From Carcharhinus longimanus (taxonomy: Eukaryota), in assembly GCA_030264375.1 (NCBI GenBank), contig JASCQW010000156.1:12262158-12326157 (forward strand): a DNA stretch of 64,000 nt, read 5' to 3'. The stretch's first letter is position 1. Each line of letters begins with the position of its first letter. The position numbers were made by a program. Shown piece after piece: positions 1-54,000 of this stretch.

Positions 1-3000
1 TCTCTGGCCCTTTCTACCACTGGAAACTGTCTGGTTCTATCAACCCTGTTCTAATTCTTTTATGATTTTAAATACTTATGTTTTGTGGTTCCCAGAAGTT
101 TGAAATAATGACACTTTTAGACACAAATACTGGAGTTAACGTCAACTGTTATTCTTGATGCTCGCCATGTGGACAGTGAAATGATACTTTGTTTCTTTGG
201 AGTACTGACTGTAGTGCAATAGTAAGAGACATGTCGTTTTGGGTTTGCATGTACACAAGTGGTTAGGTTGATTGGCCATAACAAATTGCCCCTTAGTGTC
301 AGGGGGATTAGGGCTGTAAATATGTAGGGTTATGTGGATGGGATCTGGGGGGATTGTTGTTGGTGCAGGCTGGATGGGCCAAATGGCCTCCTTCAGCACT
401 GTAGTTTTTATGTGCATAACAATATACCTCCTACCTCTTTTCAAATAATATAACAATATATTTCTCTCTTTTAGAAAAATACTTCTCTGTATCAGTGCAA
501 CTATTCCAATCTTTTTTATTATGTCTAAATTAAAGAAGATTAACAATTGACTTTTATAATTAAACCAAATACCTTAACAGTCTTTTATAGCTTGTTTTCT
601 CATGAAAACTATTTACAGTATCACTTAGTTGGTAGGATGTTGTGCCGCCATTTCATGAATTTGGTTTTCTTTGCTCTCAGTGATTAGTTGGTGTGTTGTA
701 CTGGCAACGATGTACATGTTGGTCCTGGTGTTGTAAGAGTTGTACTTGATGTTGTGTCACTTGTTGGTGGTGCTGTTGATGTTGCCTCACACATCAGTAA
801 TGTTATTGGTGTTGATGATTACCTTTTCTGCTTTTCAGTTCAGGTGTAAGTCAAATATTCCTTCTCATTTATTCCCAGTTTCAGTCTCTCTTTGATGTAT
901 GACCTTGCTGGCTTCAGATTTTCAGGATTGAATCCTGTGCATATACAGTTTATCCTTTCAACAGCTCAGGCAGTGATTTAGTGTGCTTGCTGTAGTGTTG
1001 ATTTCTTTCTACCTGTGCATCAGTTGAGTTATTGTCTTACTTTTTCCTGGTCATTTAGAGGTTGTATCTTGCTTAGCAACACTGTTTCATATTTTCTGCC
1101 ATTGAATACTTCTGCAGGTGATTTCATGTCAGCCTTGAGAGGTGTAGCTCAAAGTGACAATGAAGCAAGGTTTGGGTCTTCCTTTGTCTCTCGACATTTC
1201 ATGAGGTTTCTCTTGACCATTTGAATGTATCTTTTTGTGAAACCTTGTTCCCTTGGGTTATTTAGTGATGAGGTTGAACCCATATTGATCAGCAGATAAT
1301 TCTTTAAATTCCTTGGAGGTGAACTGAGTTCCATTTACCACATTATTTTTTTCAAGAATTCTTTTCCTGGCAAACAGAACTTGTATAGCTGAGATGATTA
1401 TAGTAACTCTCAAATATTCACCTTTCTGATAAAAGGGATCTTTGAGTAATAGGCTGTTACAATGAGATACCATTGTGGATTGTATATGAATAAGGCAGCT
1501 CCTACAGTATTTCATGGTTTAGGTGGTACTTCAGTAACTATGATATCATCTTTCTGTTGTGTATTTCTATACTTCTGACATGCAATGATGTAGCCACCAA
1601 ACTATAAGAAAACTCTGCAGAGCACAGCAATACTGCAGGGGTTACTCTTAAGGTTTCAAACTTATGATTTCACTCTGAAATACAAGCCAAGGTGACAAAT
1701 ACCCGAAAGCAGATACCCTATCTCATTTGTCACTTTATGAGAGATATAAGATAAAAGATCTAAGGGATGAATCTTTACATCTAGTGAACATAACACCACT
1801 GAAATTGAGTCAAAATGGAGTTGAAACCAACAAGGAAGAATTTTAAATGCTGCCTCAGTATGTAATCAAAAGATAGCCTGACAAGTTGTAGCAAACACAA
1901 CCAACAACAAGGCACTAATGATCAATCAGAGATAACATCTCATTGGACAGTGATGCTCTTTGGCCTGATGCAGAATCACCGTGCACAAAATGATGCAGAG
2001 AGAACACCTCCTGAAAATATATGAAGGCCTTGGAGACTCTCAGTGCTAGATCAGCAGCATGCTGGCTGACCTTCACAAGGACATGAAATGAACATCATTG
2101 AACTCTCTTTCAATGTTGGCATATCTGGTCTCAGCTGATTTTAGAGCTTTGGATGTGAATGCTATAGGATTCCCCTCTTGGACCAAGGGCACTGCCAGAA
2201 AAATTAATTAGTGCCTGAGAAATAGGAGACGTGACTCGCAGCATTGTTGTTGGTGGACTTTGCAGTGCTGGATCCTCACTTGGTTTATTGCCACCAACTT
2301 CACCATCAACACAGCAATGGTTGATATATTCCCTGGCCAGCTGAATGGCTCTGTTCTTGAAATCCATGACAGCAGGGCAGTGCAGGGACCAGCGCTGGAG
2401 AGTGTGTTTCATGAGGCAGGGAGGGGGCAAGGGGGTGTACTGCTTTGAGGTGAGTGTCGGGAGACTGTTCAGGGAGAATGTTCAGGAGAGGTGTCCCATT
2501 TTTACTTTTTTGTATTGGGGCGACCTTTAAAAAAGGTGCCCCGATCTTTAATAATCTAGGTTGCTGGCAGGGCAGGCTCAATCAGAGTCGCCCCGCAAGT
2601 GTGACATTGCAGGACTTGTGCCTTGGATTTCTTTTTCAAAGATCCTAACAAAACATCAGAGAAGGCTGTCATTGGGCCTGGAGACTTCAACACCACTTTC
2701 CCCACCTGCTGCGATATCACGCATTAAAAAGATAGAATGCTGCCCTCAAATTTTTCTTTCTCTCTGGCATGAACTTGGGTTGATTTTTTTTCAATCTAAT
2801 TCAGCACTTATTTTGTTTACAATGCTCATGTAATACTCACAAACACCTGCTGCCACCACATTATGCCTTGTGGTTCTGAGAAATTCAAAATAATCTCACC
2901 TTTGGAAATAAATACTAAAGCTGACATCACTACAGCTATCCATGTGGGAGGTGGAATGATGCATTGCTGCTTTGGAAAATAGACTGTAATATTCTGAGTG

Positions 3001-51000: not shown

Positions 51001-54000
51001 TTATAATGTGAAATGATACATTTTAGCAGGATGAATAAAGAGAGGCACTGGAATGCAGTGCATTCCAAATCACAGGAACATACTGAGTAAGAAATGTTTC
51101 CTCATGTAGCCTCTGGTTCTTTTGCCAGTAGTCTTAAATTTGTGTCCTTTGGTTACTAATTCTTGGAAACATTGGCAGGATTTTCTAGCCATGCTTGCCC
51201 CAAGTTCGAAAAATCCCATCTAAGGTCAACAGACCTTTGCATCGTCCACCCTCCGGATCGCTACAGTTCCGTGATGGGCAGAATGGGAAAATGTCACCCA
51301 TTGTCTCCTTATTTACACTTTCAAAACCATTCATGATTCTGAACACCTCGATCAAATCTTCTCTTAATTTTCTTTGCTCTAAAAAAAACTAACCCATCTT
51401 CTCTATTTCCTCAAAATAACTGAGGCCCTCATCTCTGGTACCATTTTATTATGTCTCTTATGCCCTCGCTGCTCCAAGGGCTTGACATCTCCTGTTAATA
51501 AAGCCAGGCTTTTTGATAGCCTTCTAAGCTTCTCCTGCCACCTTCAAATAGTTGTGTACATGTACTCCCCGGTCTCTCAATTCACACACACTGTTTTAAA
51601 TGATACTATTTAGTTCATAATGCCTCTCCTTATTTTTACCGCTAAAATGTATCATTTCACATCATAAAATGAAACCTCTAAGAATTGCAACACTGGAATG
51701 TTGGGTACTCAGTGTTTGTCTTGGAGAACATCTGAGCTAAGGCCTCATTTGACATTCATGCATCCAACAGATGTTATTAGAGGAGAAATCCACTGTTGAT
51801 TATTTCAGTTGAGAGCAAGACTGTATGAGTCTGGCTATGATCGGATTGGGCAGCAGTTTTCCACCTTTCATGGTCAAATAGCCAGTTGACAATGTCTCAA
51901 CACAAAGCATAGCTAGTTTGACAATGTACTAGAGGACGACTGGTACNNNNNNNNNNNNNNNNNNNNNNNNNNNNNNNNNNNNNNNNNNNNNNNNNNNNNN
52001 NNNNNNNNNNNNNNNNNNNNNNNNNNNNNNNNNNNNNNNNNNNNNNNNNNNNNNNNNNNNNNGGGTGTTGAAGCTAATGCTTGGAATTAATAATTAGAAA
52101 ATTTAATACTCCTAATTCTACAGTAACAAATTGTAAGTTGTGCATATATAGGGAGTTTAACCATAGCAATGAATGTTAGATTGCCTTGTACAATGGTTTC
52201 AGCTGTTTCATGTCATTTGTTTGAGAATCAGCTCCTTGTGTAATGAATGGATAGCGGGGCTAGTATTGAAAGCAAAACAATGAATCAAAGGGATTTCTAC
52301 AAGTTGTAAACTTGTTTTGTGAAAGTTGATTGATAATACCGCTAAAACATTAGTTCGATTCCGTTCTGAAACAGTATTCAAAAGACAAACAGTGATTGAC
52401 AGAATTCACTTAGCGATTTCAAGAATTATACTTGGACAAATTTACTCCCTTCATGTCTTGAAGTGGTTGGCTGTGCCAGGCTACTGTCAGCACTCAGTCT
52501 GTAAGAGCTTTTTGGCTATTCTACCATGAAGTTAATTGTGCCTTCATCTTGTTTTCACACAATGCATTTAGGATTCACTGGAGAGCAATCAATGGGCTCA
52601 AATTCCAGAAAAATCAAAGGTTATTTTGCTTAGAAACTTCTGTTTTTTCATTTTCTTATTAAAATGAGAGATATTAATGTTGGAGGAAGAAATCACTTAG
52701 GGAATGGAACACTCCCTGCCTTAGACAACTAGTGCCAGAAGTAGGCTCCATCTAGTTAGGTGCAGCATAAGTTAGATACAGAAGGTAGTTCCCTTCAGTC
52801 TACCTCTGAAAGCTACCTCAGTTCCAGCCAGAAAGGAGTACCCCCACTTCATTAATGCAATGCTTTTATCCAGCGCTTGAACCAGTCACCTCCAGGCCCG
52901 TTTCAAATGGCAATGCCAATGAGGAAGGTTTTATATTATGGGCTGGATTTGTATATTGATCCCAGCGTTGAGTGTTTAATCCATCAAGTACCTGATGCAA
53001 AATTCTGAGAATTCAATTGTTGACCAAAACACTGCTTTGCTAGGAAGGGTCAGTGCAAATGCCTTTGCTGATTTTATGATTTCCCAACTCCAGTGTATTG
53101 ATATCAATGCAAATTACAAGACACCCAGATAAAGGAATTTTCTTCCAATTTCCTGTTTTCCAAAAGAACACTGTCTTCACAAATGAAGTGTCTGACAAAT
53201 CTTTTCGTGTTGGCTGTTAAAGAAGGAGCCACAAAACGTGTATACCATTTTTACCATGATGTGTTGACTCTTTGGTGCAATGCTAATGTGTCCTGCTTTT
53301 GTAAACACATTAGCATTTGTCAAATGTAATCTGTAGAATTGAGAGCCTCAGCATCCGTTTTTAGCACTGTGGAAATGAATGGATTTTGACTGAGTTAAAA
53401 TTTCACCATCTGTGATGAGATGAGATAGCATGACCATTTATTCAACTTTGAACCTGATAACCAAACTCTGTGTTTCTTACTCTTTAAAAAAAAAGATGAG
53501 ATGCGCATGCATGGAGCAAACTAGCTACCTGAAATTGCAATTGAGCCTATGTTCAGTTTTGTGAATGCCTGTTCAGATCAGCTTTTCTTTATTTTCTGCT
53601 ACTCTCCTGTTCAGAAAACCATCTGGTGTTTGACAGGGCACAAGGTGGCCACATGACAACAAAACCCTGAAGCAAGATGACCCTTTGTTCATTCAATATC
53701 CCCTCCTCCACAATCTCACCCCCCACAATCCCAGACACCCCACCCCTCACCCCAACCCCCACCACCAAACTGGGCTCCCTTAACCTGAAGCAGAGACCGA
53801 AAGAGAAAAATAGTGCAAATTTGGAATCCAGAACATCATAAGATAATGAGAAAGCTGATTACTTTTAATGCCAGTTTCCCCTTTGACTCATCAACCTCTC
53901 TTTCATGGTTTCTGGTTCTCAGCCTTCCTCGTCCTTGCTAGTTTATTTTAATTCCCTTTGGGTAATCCAACTCCTTGAGGAGTCAGAAACTACAATTCCA

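What the first reader, a model, noticed from the sequence alone, without database searches (positions are those of the whole stretch)
1583..51815. Recurrent short-range inverted rearrangements: a possible general mutational process in this genome
Four events of 0.2-0.5 kb occur in 64 kb: one inversion and three inverted duplications. All lie inside old retroelements, and all three duplications sit left of a source within ~1.6 kb. Inference: frequent fold-back/template-switch repair that leaves long hairpins, which mammalian genomes tend to lose. I cannot tell whether this is already described for elasmobranchs.
[Added by the scan's program, not by the reader: the finding's places include an assembly gap (unread letters, written N; its length is only estimated) at 9154 to 9163, 18978 to 19077, 21289 to 21388, 22539 to 22548, 37993 to 38022, 43414 to 43513. 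Whether the letters on both sides are continuous or in frame is not known: test that first.]
Basis: inference. Interest (0 to 1): 0.75.

Follow-up and report, generated by a model that had tools for sequence, protein, structure and literature searches.

The report
Local inverted copies inside decayed retroelements
Two spots in this shark-like intron carry 0.2-0.5 kb stretches copied backwards from DNA 0.4-1.9 kb away, most likely by a known copying slip (template switching); one window cannot show that the genome is unusually prone to it.

Summary
Three inverted duplications are real at the DNA level. Event a is 43301-43784 vs 44147-44588 (96-97% identical). Event b is 49916-50230 vs 51487-51810 (93%). 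Event c is 50835-51047 vs 51603-51815. The arms differ only by substitutions (21 transitions, 13 transversions), so a fold-back assembly artefact is unlikely.

The 100-N gap at 43414-43513 lies inside the left arm of a. Both of its edges are colinear with the ungapped right arm.

Events b and c are two backward copies of one segment of a dead CR1-like LINE. They start within 5 nt of each other and are equally diverged. I count them as one complex event, so the window holds two robust loci, not three.

Copy c cleanly splits a LINE reading frame that is contiguous in another copy. Copies b and the source share two in-frame stops, so copying followed LINE decay.

A fourth pair (40486-40682 vs 42205-42406, 67%) is unconvincing. 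The "inversion" near 1583-2100 rests only on weak leads.

Best explanation: kilobase-range template switching, pattern 1-4-3-2 of the published four-point model. A genome-wide excess is untested. This is a known kind of event and of modest interest.

The parts
43301..43413 (.). Event a, left arm, part 1. It ends exactly at the N gap.
   Evidence: Inverted match to 44476-44588: 110 of 113 identical, no indels.
43414..43513 (.). Assembly gap (100 N) inside the left arm of event a.
   Evidence: The right arm has 58 nt (44418-44475) between the two matching blocks. The flanks are colinear. The gap was not filled.
43514..43784 (.). Event a, left arm, part 2. It starts exactly at the N gap.
   Evidence: Inverted match to 44147-44417: 260 of 271 identical, no indels.
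43785..44146 (-). Spacer of event a (362 nt). It carries LINE endonuclease-like coding remnants on the minus strand.
   Evidence: tblastn of P0019 aa 116-139 to 43851->43780, E=0.003. tblastx to the endonuclease remnant at 49849->49772, matching 44002->43925, E=0.002. A rival weak match to an RT motif lies on the + strand at 44027-44104 (E 0.19-0.45).
44147..44588 (.). Event a, right arm (ungapped, 442 nt).
   Evidence: No target-site duplication at the outer ends. No third copy in the window.
49916..50230 (+). Event b, copy 1. It is a backward copy of 51487-51810 and the only sense (+) LINE piece hit by tblastn.
   Evidence: 324 columns, 90.7% identical, one 9-nt gap; 21 substitutions in 314; matches RT C-terminal references on the + strand (E 1e-5 to 1e-9).
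49476..49915 (-). A different LINE remnant (endonuclease domain) that abuts the left edge of copy 1.
   Evidence: tblastn of P0019 aa 83-124 and 148-179 to 49779->49476, E=6e-4. P0019 aa 53-64 to 49894->49859, E=0.37. Pfam Exo_endo_phos_2, E=0.038. That the same domain continues right of copy 1 (50231-50400) is a motif reading from recall only.
50835..51047 (+). Event c, copy 2. It is a backward copy of 51603-51815 inserted into the same LINE. It also carries an 8-nt tandem duplication and a 10-nt insertion.
   Evidence: the LINE frame is contiguous in the copy at 32.1-32.3 kb (32264->32199 followed by 32192->32127). Here it is split into 51121->51056 and 50838->50773 (E=3e-5).
50740..51815 (-). 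Decayed CR1-like LINE (RT C-terminal part and C-terminal domain) on the minus strand. It probably continues right into the gap at 51947.
   Evidence: tblastn of P0003 aa 17-146 to 51661->51305, E=8e-15. P0033 aa 747-786 to 51430->51311, E=2e-8. Pfam on the references gives Exo_endo_phos plus RVT_1. Also.
51487..51815 (-). Source segment copied twice, giving events b and c.
   Evidence: It lies in its native LINE context, continuous with downstream LINE coding sequence.
40486..40682 (.). Weak inverted pair d, left member.
   Evidence: 67% identical over 206 columns to 42205-42406; the core is 73.6% over 106 nt. No other clear copy in the window.
42205..42406 (.). Weak inverted pair d, right member. 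It lies just upstream of a minus-strand LINE RT at 42182->40850.
1583..2100 (+). Putative inverted segment of an LTR-retroelement pol gene (RNase H end to integrase zinc finger, read on the + strand). The breakpoints are uncertain.
   Evidence: Atlas lead RT_RNaseH, score 0.87, rank 3, for ORF 1594-1692(+). Otherwise it rests on motif reading from recall. Nothing was found in Pfam or PDB or in the protein library.
1000..1518 (-). Integrase-core-like remnant on the minus strand, flanking the putative inversion.
   Evidence: Atlas lead rve, score 0.87-0.88, for ORF 1261-1518(-). No hit in Pfam, PDB or the protein library.
2100..2180 (-). RNase H-like remnant on the minus strand, flanking the putative inversion.
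   Evidence: Pfam RT_RNaseH_2, E=0.0039 (17.6 bits, cut-off 29.8) and RT_RNaseH, E=0.017.

Best explanation
After the retroelements had decayed, DNA synthesis (at a stalled replication fork or during break repair) left its template at one point. It copied 0.2-0.5 kb from the opposite strand 0.4-1.9 kb further right, then returned to where it had left. The result is a backward copy pasted in with little or no loss of target sequence.

In the published four-point notation all three copies have the order 1-4-3-2.

This happened at two separate times and places. Event a has about 3.6% arm divergence. Events b and c have about 6.6-7.5% and are best read as one multi-switch event that used the same source twice.

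Shown: the copies, their orientation and boundaries, their substitution-only divergence, the clean insertion of c, the stops shared by copy 1 and the source, and the equal age of b and c.

Inferred: the polymerase-switch mechanism itself, its direction, and that b and c arose in one event.
For: 1. The arms are inverted, have sharp ends, and differ only by substitutions. There are 34 differences in 685 aligned positions (21 transitions, 13 transversions, 6 in CpG context) and no indels. This is the pattern of natural divergence.
2. Copy c is a pure insertion. Two LINE frame segments that are 6 nt apart in the copy at 32.2 kb are separated here by the 213-nt copy (E=3e-5).
3. Copy b and the source share two in-frame stops inside the segment that aligns to 5 of 5 reference proteins. 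The LINE was therefore already dead when it was copied.
4. The copies are internal LINE fragments without a 3' end. Copy b abuts another LINE's endonuclease remnant on its left.
5. Over 172-190 shared ungapped columns, private substitutions number 7 (copy 1), 8-11 (copy 2) and 5-6 (source). This is a star-like tree.
6. The two copies start 5 nt apart on the source. Two independent events would rarely share a start this closely; at a rough guess, about 0.5% if starts were spread evenly over about 2 kb.
7. The 1-4-3-2 order is one of the two majority patterns that create single inverted repeats in great-ape template-switch events (PMC7954356, passages read).
8. No target-site duplication flanks event a.
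Against: - No outgroup or empty site is available. The ancestral state, and hence insertion rather than some other history, is shown only for c (by comparison with a paralogous LINE). It is partly shown for b.
- For event a, the source arm is unresolved. My motif readings on both sides failed shuffle tests: 24 to 168 of 200 shuffles reached the observed score.
- I saw no microhomology at the junctions of event a. With 3.6-7% later divergence, 1-3 nt would be unreadable anyway.
- Published short-range events were sought within tens to hundreds of nucleotides (PMC7954356). The jumps here are several-fold to tenfold longer, so this is an extrapolation.
- The copy number of the arms elsewhere in the genome is unknown. 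A mobile unit cannot be excluded for event a.
- The assembly is heavily gapped (10 gaps in 64 kb).
Confidence: 0.55

Rival explanations
1. RNA-templated patching. A nearby transcript (the intron RNA of the host gene, or a LINE transcript) was reverse-transcribed by LINE machinery. The cDNA was then captured at nearby breaks in either orientation.
For: - All well-identified sources are LINE sequence, in a region full of CR1-like LINE remnants.
- The locus is probably an intron of a PRDM16-like gene transcribed from the + strand.
- Locally tethered RNA would explain the short range.
Against: - There are no tails or target-site duplications.
- The copies are of a dead LINE with shared stops.
- The geometry does not fit twin priming. 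The inverted copies lie on the 3' side of the source, or in another element, and they duplicate sequence rather than flip it.
- Nothing requires an RNA step.
Confidence: 0.13
2. The arms are copies of an unrecognised mobile or composite repeat, or independent transposon insertions, that landed twice nearby in opposite orientation. This applies mainly to event a and pair d.
For: - In event a the two copies have the same ends by definition, and neither could be shown to sit in a native context.
- Pair d is old (67% identical) and looks like two members of a repeat family.
Against: - There is no target-site duplication and no terminal hallmark at event a.
- There is no third copy of any arm in 64 kb.
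- For b and c, the source is continuous with its LINE. The copies are internal fragments that share its stops and its start point.
Confidence: 0.12
3. Assembly artefact: fold-back chimeric reads, wrong gap closing, or two haplotypes of an inversion assembled side by side.
For: - The assembly is fragmented (10 gaps in 64 kb).
- One gap lies inside the left arm of event a, and another lies 132 nt from the source of b and c.
Against: - The arms differ by 3.6-7% with a transition excess and no indels. Artefactual fold-backs would be near-identical.
- Event a part 2, event b and event c each lie with their partner inside one gap-free contig.
- The two contigs that flank the gap both continue the same arm colinearly.
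Confidence: 0.07
4. The rearrangements arose during retrotransposition itself, through twin priming or reverse-transcriptase template jumps.
For: - All events lie in retroelements.
- Twin priming is known to give inverted, truncated L1 copies flanked by target-site duplications (start of the abstract of PMC2837659, seen in the listing).
- Events b and c are of equal age.
Against: - The inverted copies are not at the 5' side of the direct part.
- They duplicate 0.2-0.3 kb of sequence.
- One copy (b) abuts a different LINE on its left.
- The copied sequence already carried stop codons.
- First-strand synthesis cannot produce sense sequence in the middle of the element.
Confidence: 0.05

Closest known systems
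Short-range template switch mutations (four-point model; Walker et al. 2021, PMC7954356, passages read)
   Same: A segment is copied in reverse complement from a nearby site and synthesis then returns. The order 1-4-3-2 creates a single inverted repeat. The model covers inversions and inverted duplications under one scheme.
   Different: Published scans restrict the alternate template to tens to hundreds of nucleotides and mostly find short clusters. Here the copied tracts are 213-442 nt or more, and the jumps are about 0.8-1.9 kb from the leaving point. No ancestor-descendant alignment is available here.
FoSTeS / MMBIR complex rearrangements (PMC2621351; listing and start of abstract only)
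   Same: Replication-based template switches, often several in one event, give inserted segments in either orientation. This fits the double use of one source in events b and c.
   Different: Those are described at kilobase-to-megabase scale in human disease loci, with junction microhomology. Here the scale is sub-kilobase and microhomology could not be assessed.
Small inverted triplications (PMC13334657, abstract read)
   Same: Small replication-error products with inverted copies of about 150 bp, linked to Okazaki-fragment processing.
   Different: Those have a direct-inverted-direct layout with about 30-bp spacers. Here the layout is inverted, inverted, original, with 0.57-1.3 kb spacers.
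L1 twin priming (5' inversion)
   Same: An inverted LINE segment lies next to a direct one.
   Different: The geometry and the duplication do not fit (see membership test). The copied LINE was already dead.
Inverted Alu pairs / long inverted repeats as instability motifs (PMC3215922 and PMC10164571, abstracts read)
   Same: Inverted repeats of a few hundred bp that can fold back.
   Different: Those arise from independent insertions. Here the repeats arise by local copying. Spacers of at least 362 nt and 3.6-7% divergence make them comparatively stable.

Membership tests
Template-switch insertion, four-point pattern 1-4-3-2 | The inserted tract is the reverse complement of a nearby tract on the same chromosome. 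| tested here: met
   for events a, b and c.
Template-switch insertion, four-point pattern 1-4-3-2 | Synthesis returns to the leaving point, so the copy is an insertion with little or no target loss. | tested here: met
   Met for c: one search shows the frame is contiguous in a paralogous LINE and split here by the 213-nt copy. Only partly shown for b (left flank only). Not resolved for a.
Template-switch insertion, four-point pattern 1-4-3-2 | The alternate template lies within the range used in published scans (tens to hundreds of nt). | tested here: not met
   The spacers are 362, 574 and 1293 nt. The published range comes from PMC7954356. The events work like the family but at a larger scale.
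Template-switch insertion, four-point pattern 1-4-3-2 | The ancestral (pre-event) sequence is known from an outgroup. | not testable with these tools
   Neither the host genome nor any related genome is on hand.
LINE twin priming | The inverted segment lies on the 5' side of the direct, tail-bearing segment, and the two are adjacent in LINE coordinates. | tested here: not met
   Copies 1 and 2 lie on the 3' side of the source. They duplicate it rather than continue it.
LINE twin priming | Target-site duplication flanks the whole insertion. | tested here: not met
   None was seen at the outer ends of event a. This was not examined rigorously for b and c.
Independent LINE insertions in opposite orientation | Each copy runs to the LINE 3' end, with its own 5' truncation point. 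| tested here: not met
   Copies 1 and 2 end 324 and 213 nt into the segment. They share the same start within 5 nt.
Independent LINE insertions in opposite orientation | The copies derive from an active master, so disabling mutations are private to each copy. | tested here: not met
   Two in-frame stops are shared by copy 1 and the source.
DNA transposon or foldback element with long terminal inverted repeats | Target-site duplication at the ends, an element-specific interior, and further copies elsewhere. | tested here: inconclusive
   No target-site duplication was found. The interior of event a carries in-situ LINE endonuclease-like remnants. There are no other copies in the window. Genome-wide copy number could not be tested.
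Assembly fold-back artefact | The arms are (near) identical and confined to contig ends. | tested here: not met
   The arms diverge by 3.6-7%, by substitutions only, with transitions outnumbering transversions. Partners lie within one contig for event a part 2 and for b and c.
In-place inversion within an LTR-retroelement pol gene (the event at about 1583-2100) | Domain order RNase H, integrase zinc finger, integrase core, with the middle piece on the opposite strand. | tested here: inconclusive
   Only sub-threshold or lead-level hits were found: RNase H on the minus strand, E=0.0039; rve on the minus strand, 0.88; RT_RNaseH on the plus strand, 0.87. Searches found nothing.

The most novel reading that the evidence does not exclude
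Elasmobranch genomes might generate or retain kilobase-range inverted templated insertions (0.2-0.5 kb copied backwards from within about 2 kb) far more often than mammals. That would be of the order of one locus per few tens of kb. Template switching would then be a measurable contributor to their intron growth and a steady source of long hairpin-forming DNA and RNA, including LINE-derived hairpins that could feed small-RNA silencing of LINEs.
Probability: 0.12. Interest if true: 0.6.

Novelty: new member of a known kind. Interest (0 to 1): 0.3.

Why it matters
If the density seen here (two independent loci in about 63 kb of resolved sequence) were typical, local template switching would be a notable force in shaping large, repeat-rich shark genomes. 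It would also be a source of hairpin-forming sequence.

As it stands, the window offers clean natural examples of unusually long-range, long-tract template-switch insertions. One is a double use of the same source. Such cases are useful for calibrating genome-wide scans, which currently look only within tens to hundreds of nucleotides.

It is also a caution for repeat annotation. Sense-oriented LINE pieces in an otherwise antisense intron need not be insertions.

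Tried and rejected
PROTEIN AND FAMILY SEARCHES THAT GAVE LITTLE
- Pfam on 146 ORFs of at least 70 aa gave only 2 weak hits.
Shorter references followed and gave only sub-threshold hits.
- All three homologous-protein searches found nothing: integrase-like read-through, the + strand read-through, and the stop-free ORF 1261-1518. No pol reference was therefore available, and the inversion breakpoints could not be mapped.
- PDB searches with the two pol pieces found nothing meaningful.
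- tblastx of 1-4500 against the rest of the window found no second copy of the LTR element, only the short repeat family.
- tblastx of event a against the rest of the window at E up to 1 found nothing useful.

IDEAS I DROPPED
- I read endonuclease C-terminal motifs left of the left arm and right of the right arm of event a. Neither beat shuffles: 168 of 200 and 168 of 200 shuffles reached the score with P0019, and 70 of 200 and 24 of 200 with the window's own LINE. The positive control scored 0 of 200. I dropped both readings, so the source arm of a stays open.
- I first took position 51815 for the 5' end of the LINE. A motif reading suggests the LINE continues to the gap, so I dropped that as well.
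- Twin priming, a terminal-inverted-repeat transposon, independent insertions, an inverted triplication and an assembly artefact were each considered and rejected, or left as minor rivals (see membership test).

OTHER NEGATIVE RESULTS
- Rfam found no family in the window.
- Literature: no paper linking inverted duplication or template switching to shark genomes appeared (top 12-15 listings only). The Squalomix preprint contains the word 'inverted' 0 times.

Full report
WHAT IS THERE

The window has 10 runs of N. A repeat scan and self-BLAST find three strong short-range inverted matches.

- Event a: 43301-43413 and 43514-43784 match 44476-44588 and 44147-44417. There are 3 differences in 113 and 11 in 271, with no indels. 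The spacer is 362 nt.
- Event b: 49916-50216 matches 51510-51810, with 20 differences in 301. It extends to 49916-50230 vs 51487-51810 with one 9-nt gap. The spacer is about 1.3 kb.
- Event c: 50835-51047 matches 51603-51815. The spacer is 574 nt.
- E-values are 1e-48 to 1e-128.
- Of the 34 substitutions in a and b, 21 are transitions, 13 are transversions and 6 are in CpG context. This looks like natural divergence, not sequencing or assembly error.

THE GAP

Only the gap at 43414-43513 touches an event. The left arm of a runs right up to the Ns on both sides. The two flanking contigs match one uninterrupted stretch of the right arm in the correct order and orientation, with 58 nt of the right arm opposite the 100 Ns. 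The sequence on both sides is therefore continuous in the sense that matters, and the gap is probably shorter than written. I did not fill it. Event a part 2 with its partner, and events b and c with their source, all lie in one gap-free contig (43514-51946).

WHAT THE ARMS ARE

A sensitive library search used the minus-strand reading of 51047-51799, with stops read as X. It gave 42 weak hits, the best at E=4.9e-10. They include two long proteins with endonuclease plus RVT_1 domains (P0019 and P0033; Pfam). These are LINE ORF2-like proteins. The CR1-like label comes from motifs I recall, not from a named hit.

Local tblastn with all 42 references (rows printed for 7 of them) finds LINE remnants at 9 places. 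Eight are on the minus strand. The single plus-strand place is copy 1 of event b. One search adds a further minus-strand endonuclease remnant at 49476-49779.

The source of b and c (51487-51815) sits in its native context in a minus-strand LINE. That LINE aligns onward to the references down to about 51091.

EVENTS b AND c IN DETAIL

- Copy 1 and the source carry the same two in-frame stop codons within the segment that aligns to all 5 references used. The LINE was already dead when it was copied.
- Copy 2 is a clean insertion. In another LINE remnant at 32.1-32.3 kb, the frame segments 32264->32199 and 32192->32127 are 6 nt apart. Their counterparts here, 51121->51056 and 50838->50773, are separated by the 213-nt copy (E=3e-5).
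- The left edge of copy 1 abuts the endonuclease remnant of a different LINE (P0019 aa 53-64 at 49894->49859, E=0.37; aa 83-179 at 49779->49476, E=6e-4).
- That the same domain resumes right of copy 1 is my motif reading only, from recall.
- A three-way alignment shows that both copies start within 5 nt of each other on the source (51810 and 51815).
- Over 172-190 shared ungapped columns, private substitutions are 7, 8-11 and 5-6 for copy 1, copy 2 and the source. This is a star-like tree.
- I therefore read b and c as one complex event with two switches to the same template, or as two events at a hotspot at about the same time.

EVENT a IN DETAIL

- The spacer has two colinear weak matches to a LINE endonuclease on the minus strand: P0019 aa 116-139 (E=0.003), and the window's other endonuclease remnant (E=0.002).
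- A rival weak match to an RT motif lies on the plus strand at 44027-44104 (E 0.19-0.45).
- The arms themselves match nothing.
- I could not decide which arm is the source. My motif readings on either side failed shuffle tests.
- No target-site duplication flanks the pair. No third copy exists in the window.

THE OTHER TWO CLAIMED EVENTS

- A fourth inverted pair, 40486-40682 vs 42205-42406, is 67% identical over 206 columns. It may be an old event of the same kind or two old members of a repeat family. I do not count it.
- The inversion: on the plus strand from about 1583, I read motifs of the end of RNase H and the start of an integrase zinc finger. RNase H-like sequence (about 2100-2180) and integrase-core-like sequence (about 1000-1518) lie on the minus strand on either side.
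- The plus-strand piece would supply exactly what is missing between the two minus-strand pieces. That fits an in-place inversion.
- Tool support is thin: Pfam RT_RNaseH_2 at E=0.0039, below the cut-off, and two Atlas leads below 0.9.
- Searches found nothing. An overlapping minus-strand reading competes with the plus-strand one at 1960-2046.
- I put the inversion at roughly 60% likely, with uncertain breakpoints.

MECHANISM

The copies are not independent insertions (no 3' ends, shared start, shared stops). They are not twin priming (wrong side of the source, duplicated rather than flipped sequence, one copy abutting another element). They are not a terminal-repeat transposon (no target-site duplication, in-situ LINE interior). 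They are not fold-back artefacts (3.6-7% substitution divergence).

What remains is templated copying from the opposite strand nearby, followed by a return to the starting point. In the four-point notation of Walker et al. (PMC7954356, passages read), all three have the order 1-4-3-2. That is one of the two majority patterns that create single inverted repeats. The same model also yields in-place inversions. The tracts (213-442 nt or more) and the jumps (up to 1.9 kb) exceed the 'tens to hundreds of nucleotides' searched in that work. A multi-switch event, as in FoSTeS/MMBIR, fits b and c. Whether the switch occurred at a fork or in break repair, and its direction, is inferred and not shown.

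CONTEXT

ORF 8246-8818(+) contains a PRDM16-type PR-domain exon (PDB 2n1i_A, E=2.8e-33). The events are thus probably intronic, and the LINE remnants are antisense to the gene. The inverted copies are the only sense-oriented LINE pieces found.

THE WIDER CLAIM

Two independent loci (divergence 3.6% and about 7%), plus two doubtful cases, in one window selected for this feature cannot establish a genome-wide process or an excess over other vertebrates. The host genome is not available here.

Literature read:
- Inverted Alu pairs are depleted in human (PMC3215922, abstract).
- Distance and divergence reduce inverted-repeat instability (PMC10164571, abstract).
- Human carries 4,315,271 inverted duplicates with spacers of at most 1 kb, 80% of them with arms of at most 35 nt (PMC5398296, passages).
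- Small inverted triplications of about 150 bp arise from replication errors (PMC13334657, abstract).

I found no paper describing this for sharks (listings only). The supplementary tables of these papers were not available.

VERDICT

The inverted duplications are real. They are best explained by a known mechanism acting at an unusually long range. The 'recurrent general process' reading is possible but untested. Interest is modest.

Noticed in passing
window 8246-8818 (+), match at about 8438-8692: This open frame holds an exon of a PRDM16-like PR domain (PDB 2n1i_A E=2.8e-33; MECOM 6xau_A E=6e-23). The window probably lies in that gene, and most of it would be intron.
   Followed up: partly
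window 19943-21165, 29361-29573, 32121-32813, 36916-37814, 40850-42182, 48878-48988, 49476-49779, 51284-51661, 56096-56173: All ordinary CR1-like LINE remnants are on the minus strand, antisense to the PRDM16-like gene. The only plus-strand LINE pieces are the inverted copies 1 and 2.
   Followed up: partly
window 260-400, 15078-15172, 17641-17964, 28293-28468, 38026-38330, 42707-42923, 48572-48699, 57090-57417: A short interspersed repeat family has at least 8 copies in both orientations, 70-85% alike. It is possibly a LINE 3' tail or a SINE. Rfam has no match.
   Followed up: partly
library protein P0031 (708 aa): This public gene model has BBS7 domains. Its first roughly 172 residues match LINE C-terminal sequence in this window. 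It is probably a chimeric annotation.
   Followed up: no
window 3123-3310: A tandem repeat with a 32-nt unit, 5.9 copies and 73% matches. It lies just beside the decayed LTR-retroelement region.
   Followed up: no
window 42672-42719: A 48-nt near-palindrome, 83% self-complementary.
   Followed up: no
window 33149-33430 (-): A weak aspartyl-protease match (Asp_protease_2, E=0.0019, below the cut-off). It is possibly another LTR-retroelement remnant.
   Followed up: no
window 16053-16058, 51947-52062, 55997-56096, 62545-62644: Four further N runs are not in the program's list for this finding. The run at 51947 begins 132 nt right of the source of events b and c, and the LINE probably continues into it.
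   Followed up: partly
window 45452-45520 vs 46404-46478: Another short inverted match, 75 columns, 80% identical, 884 nt apart. It was not analysed.
   Followed up: no
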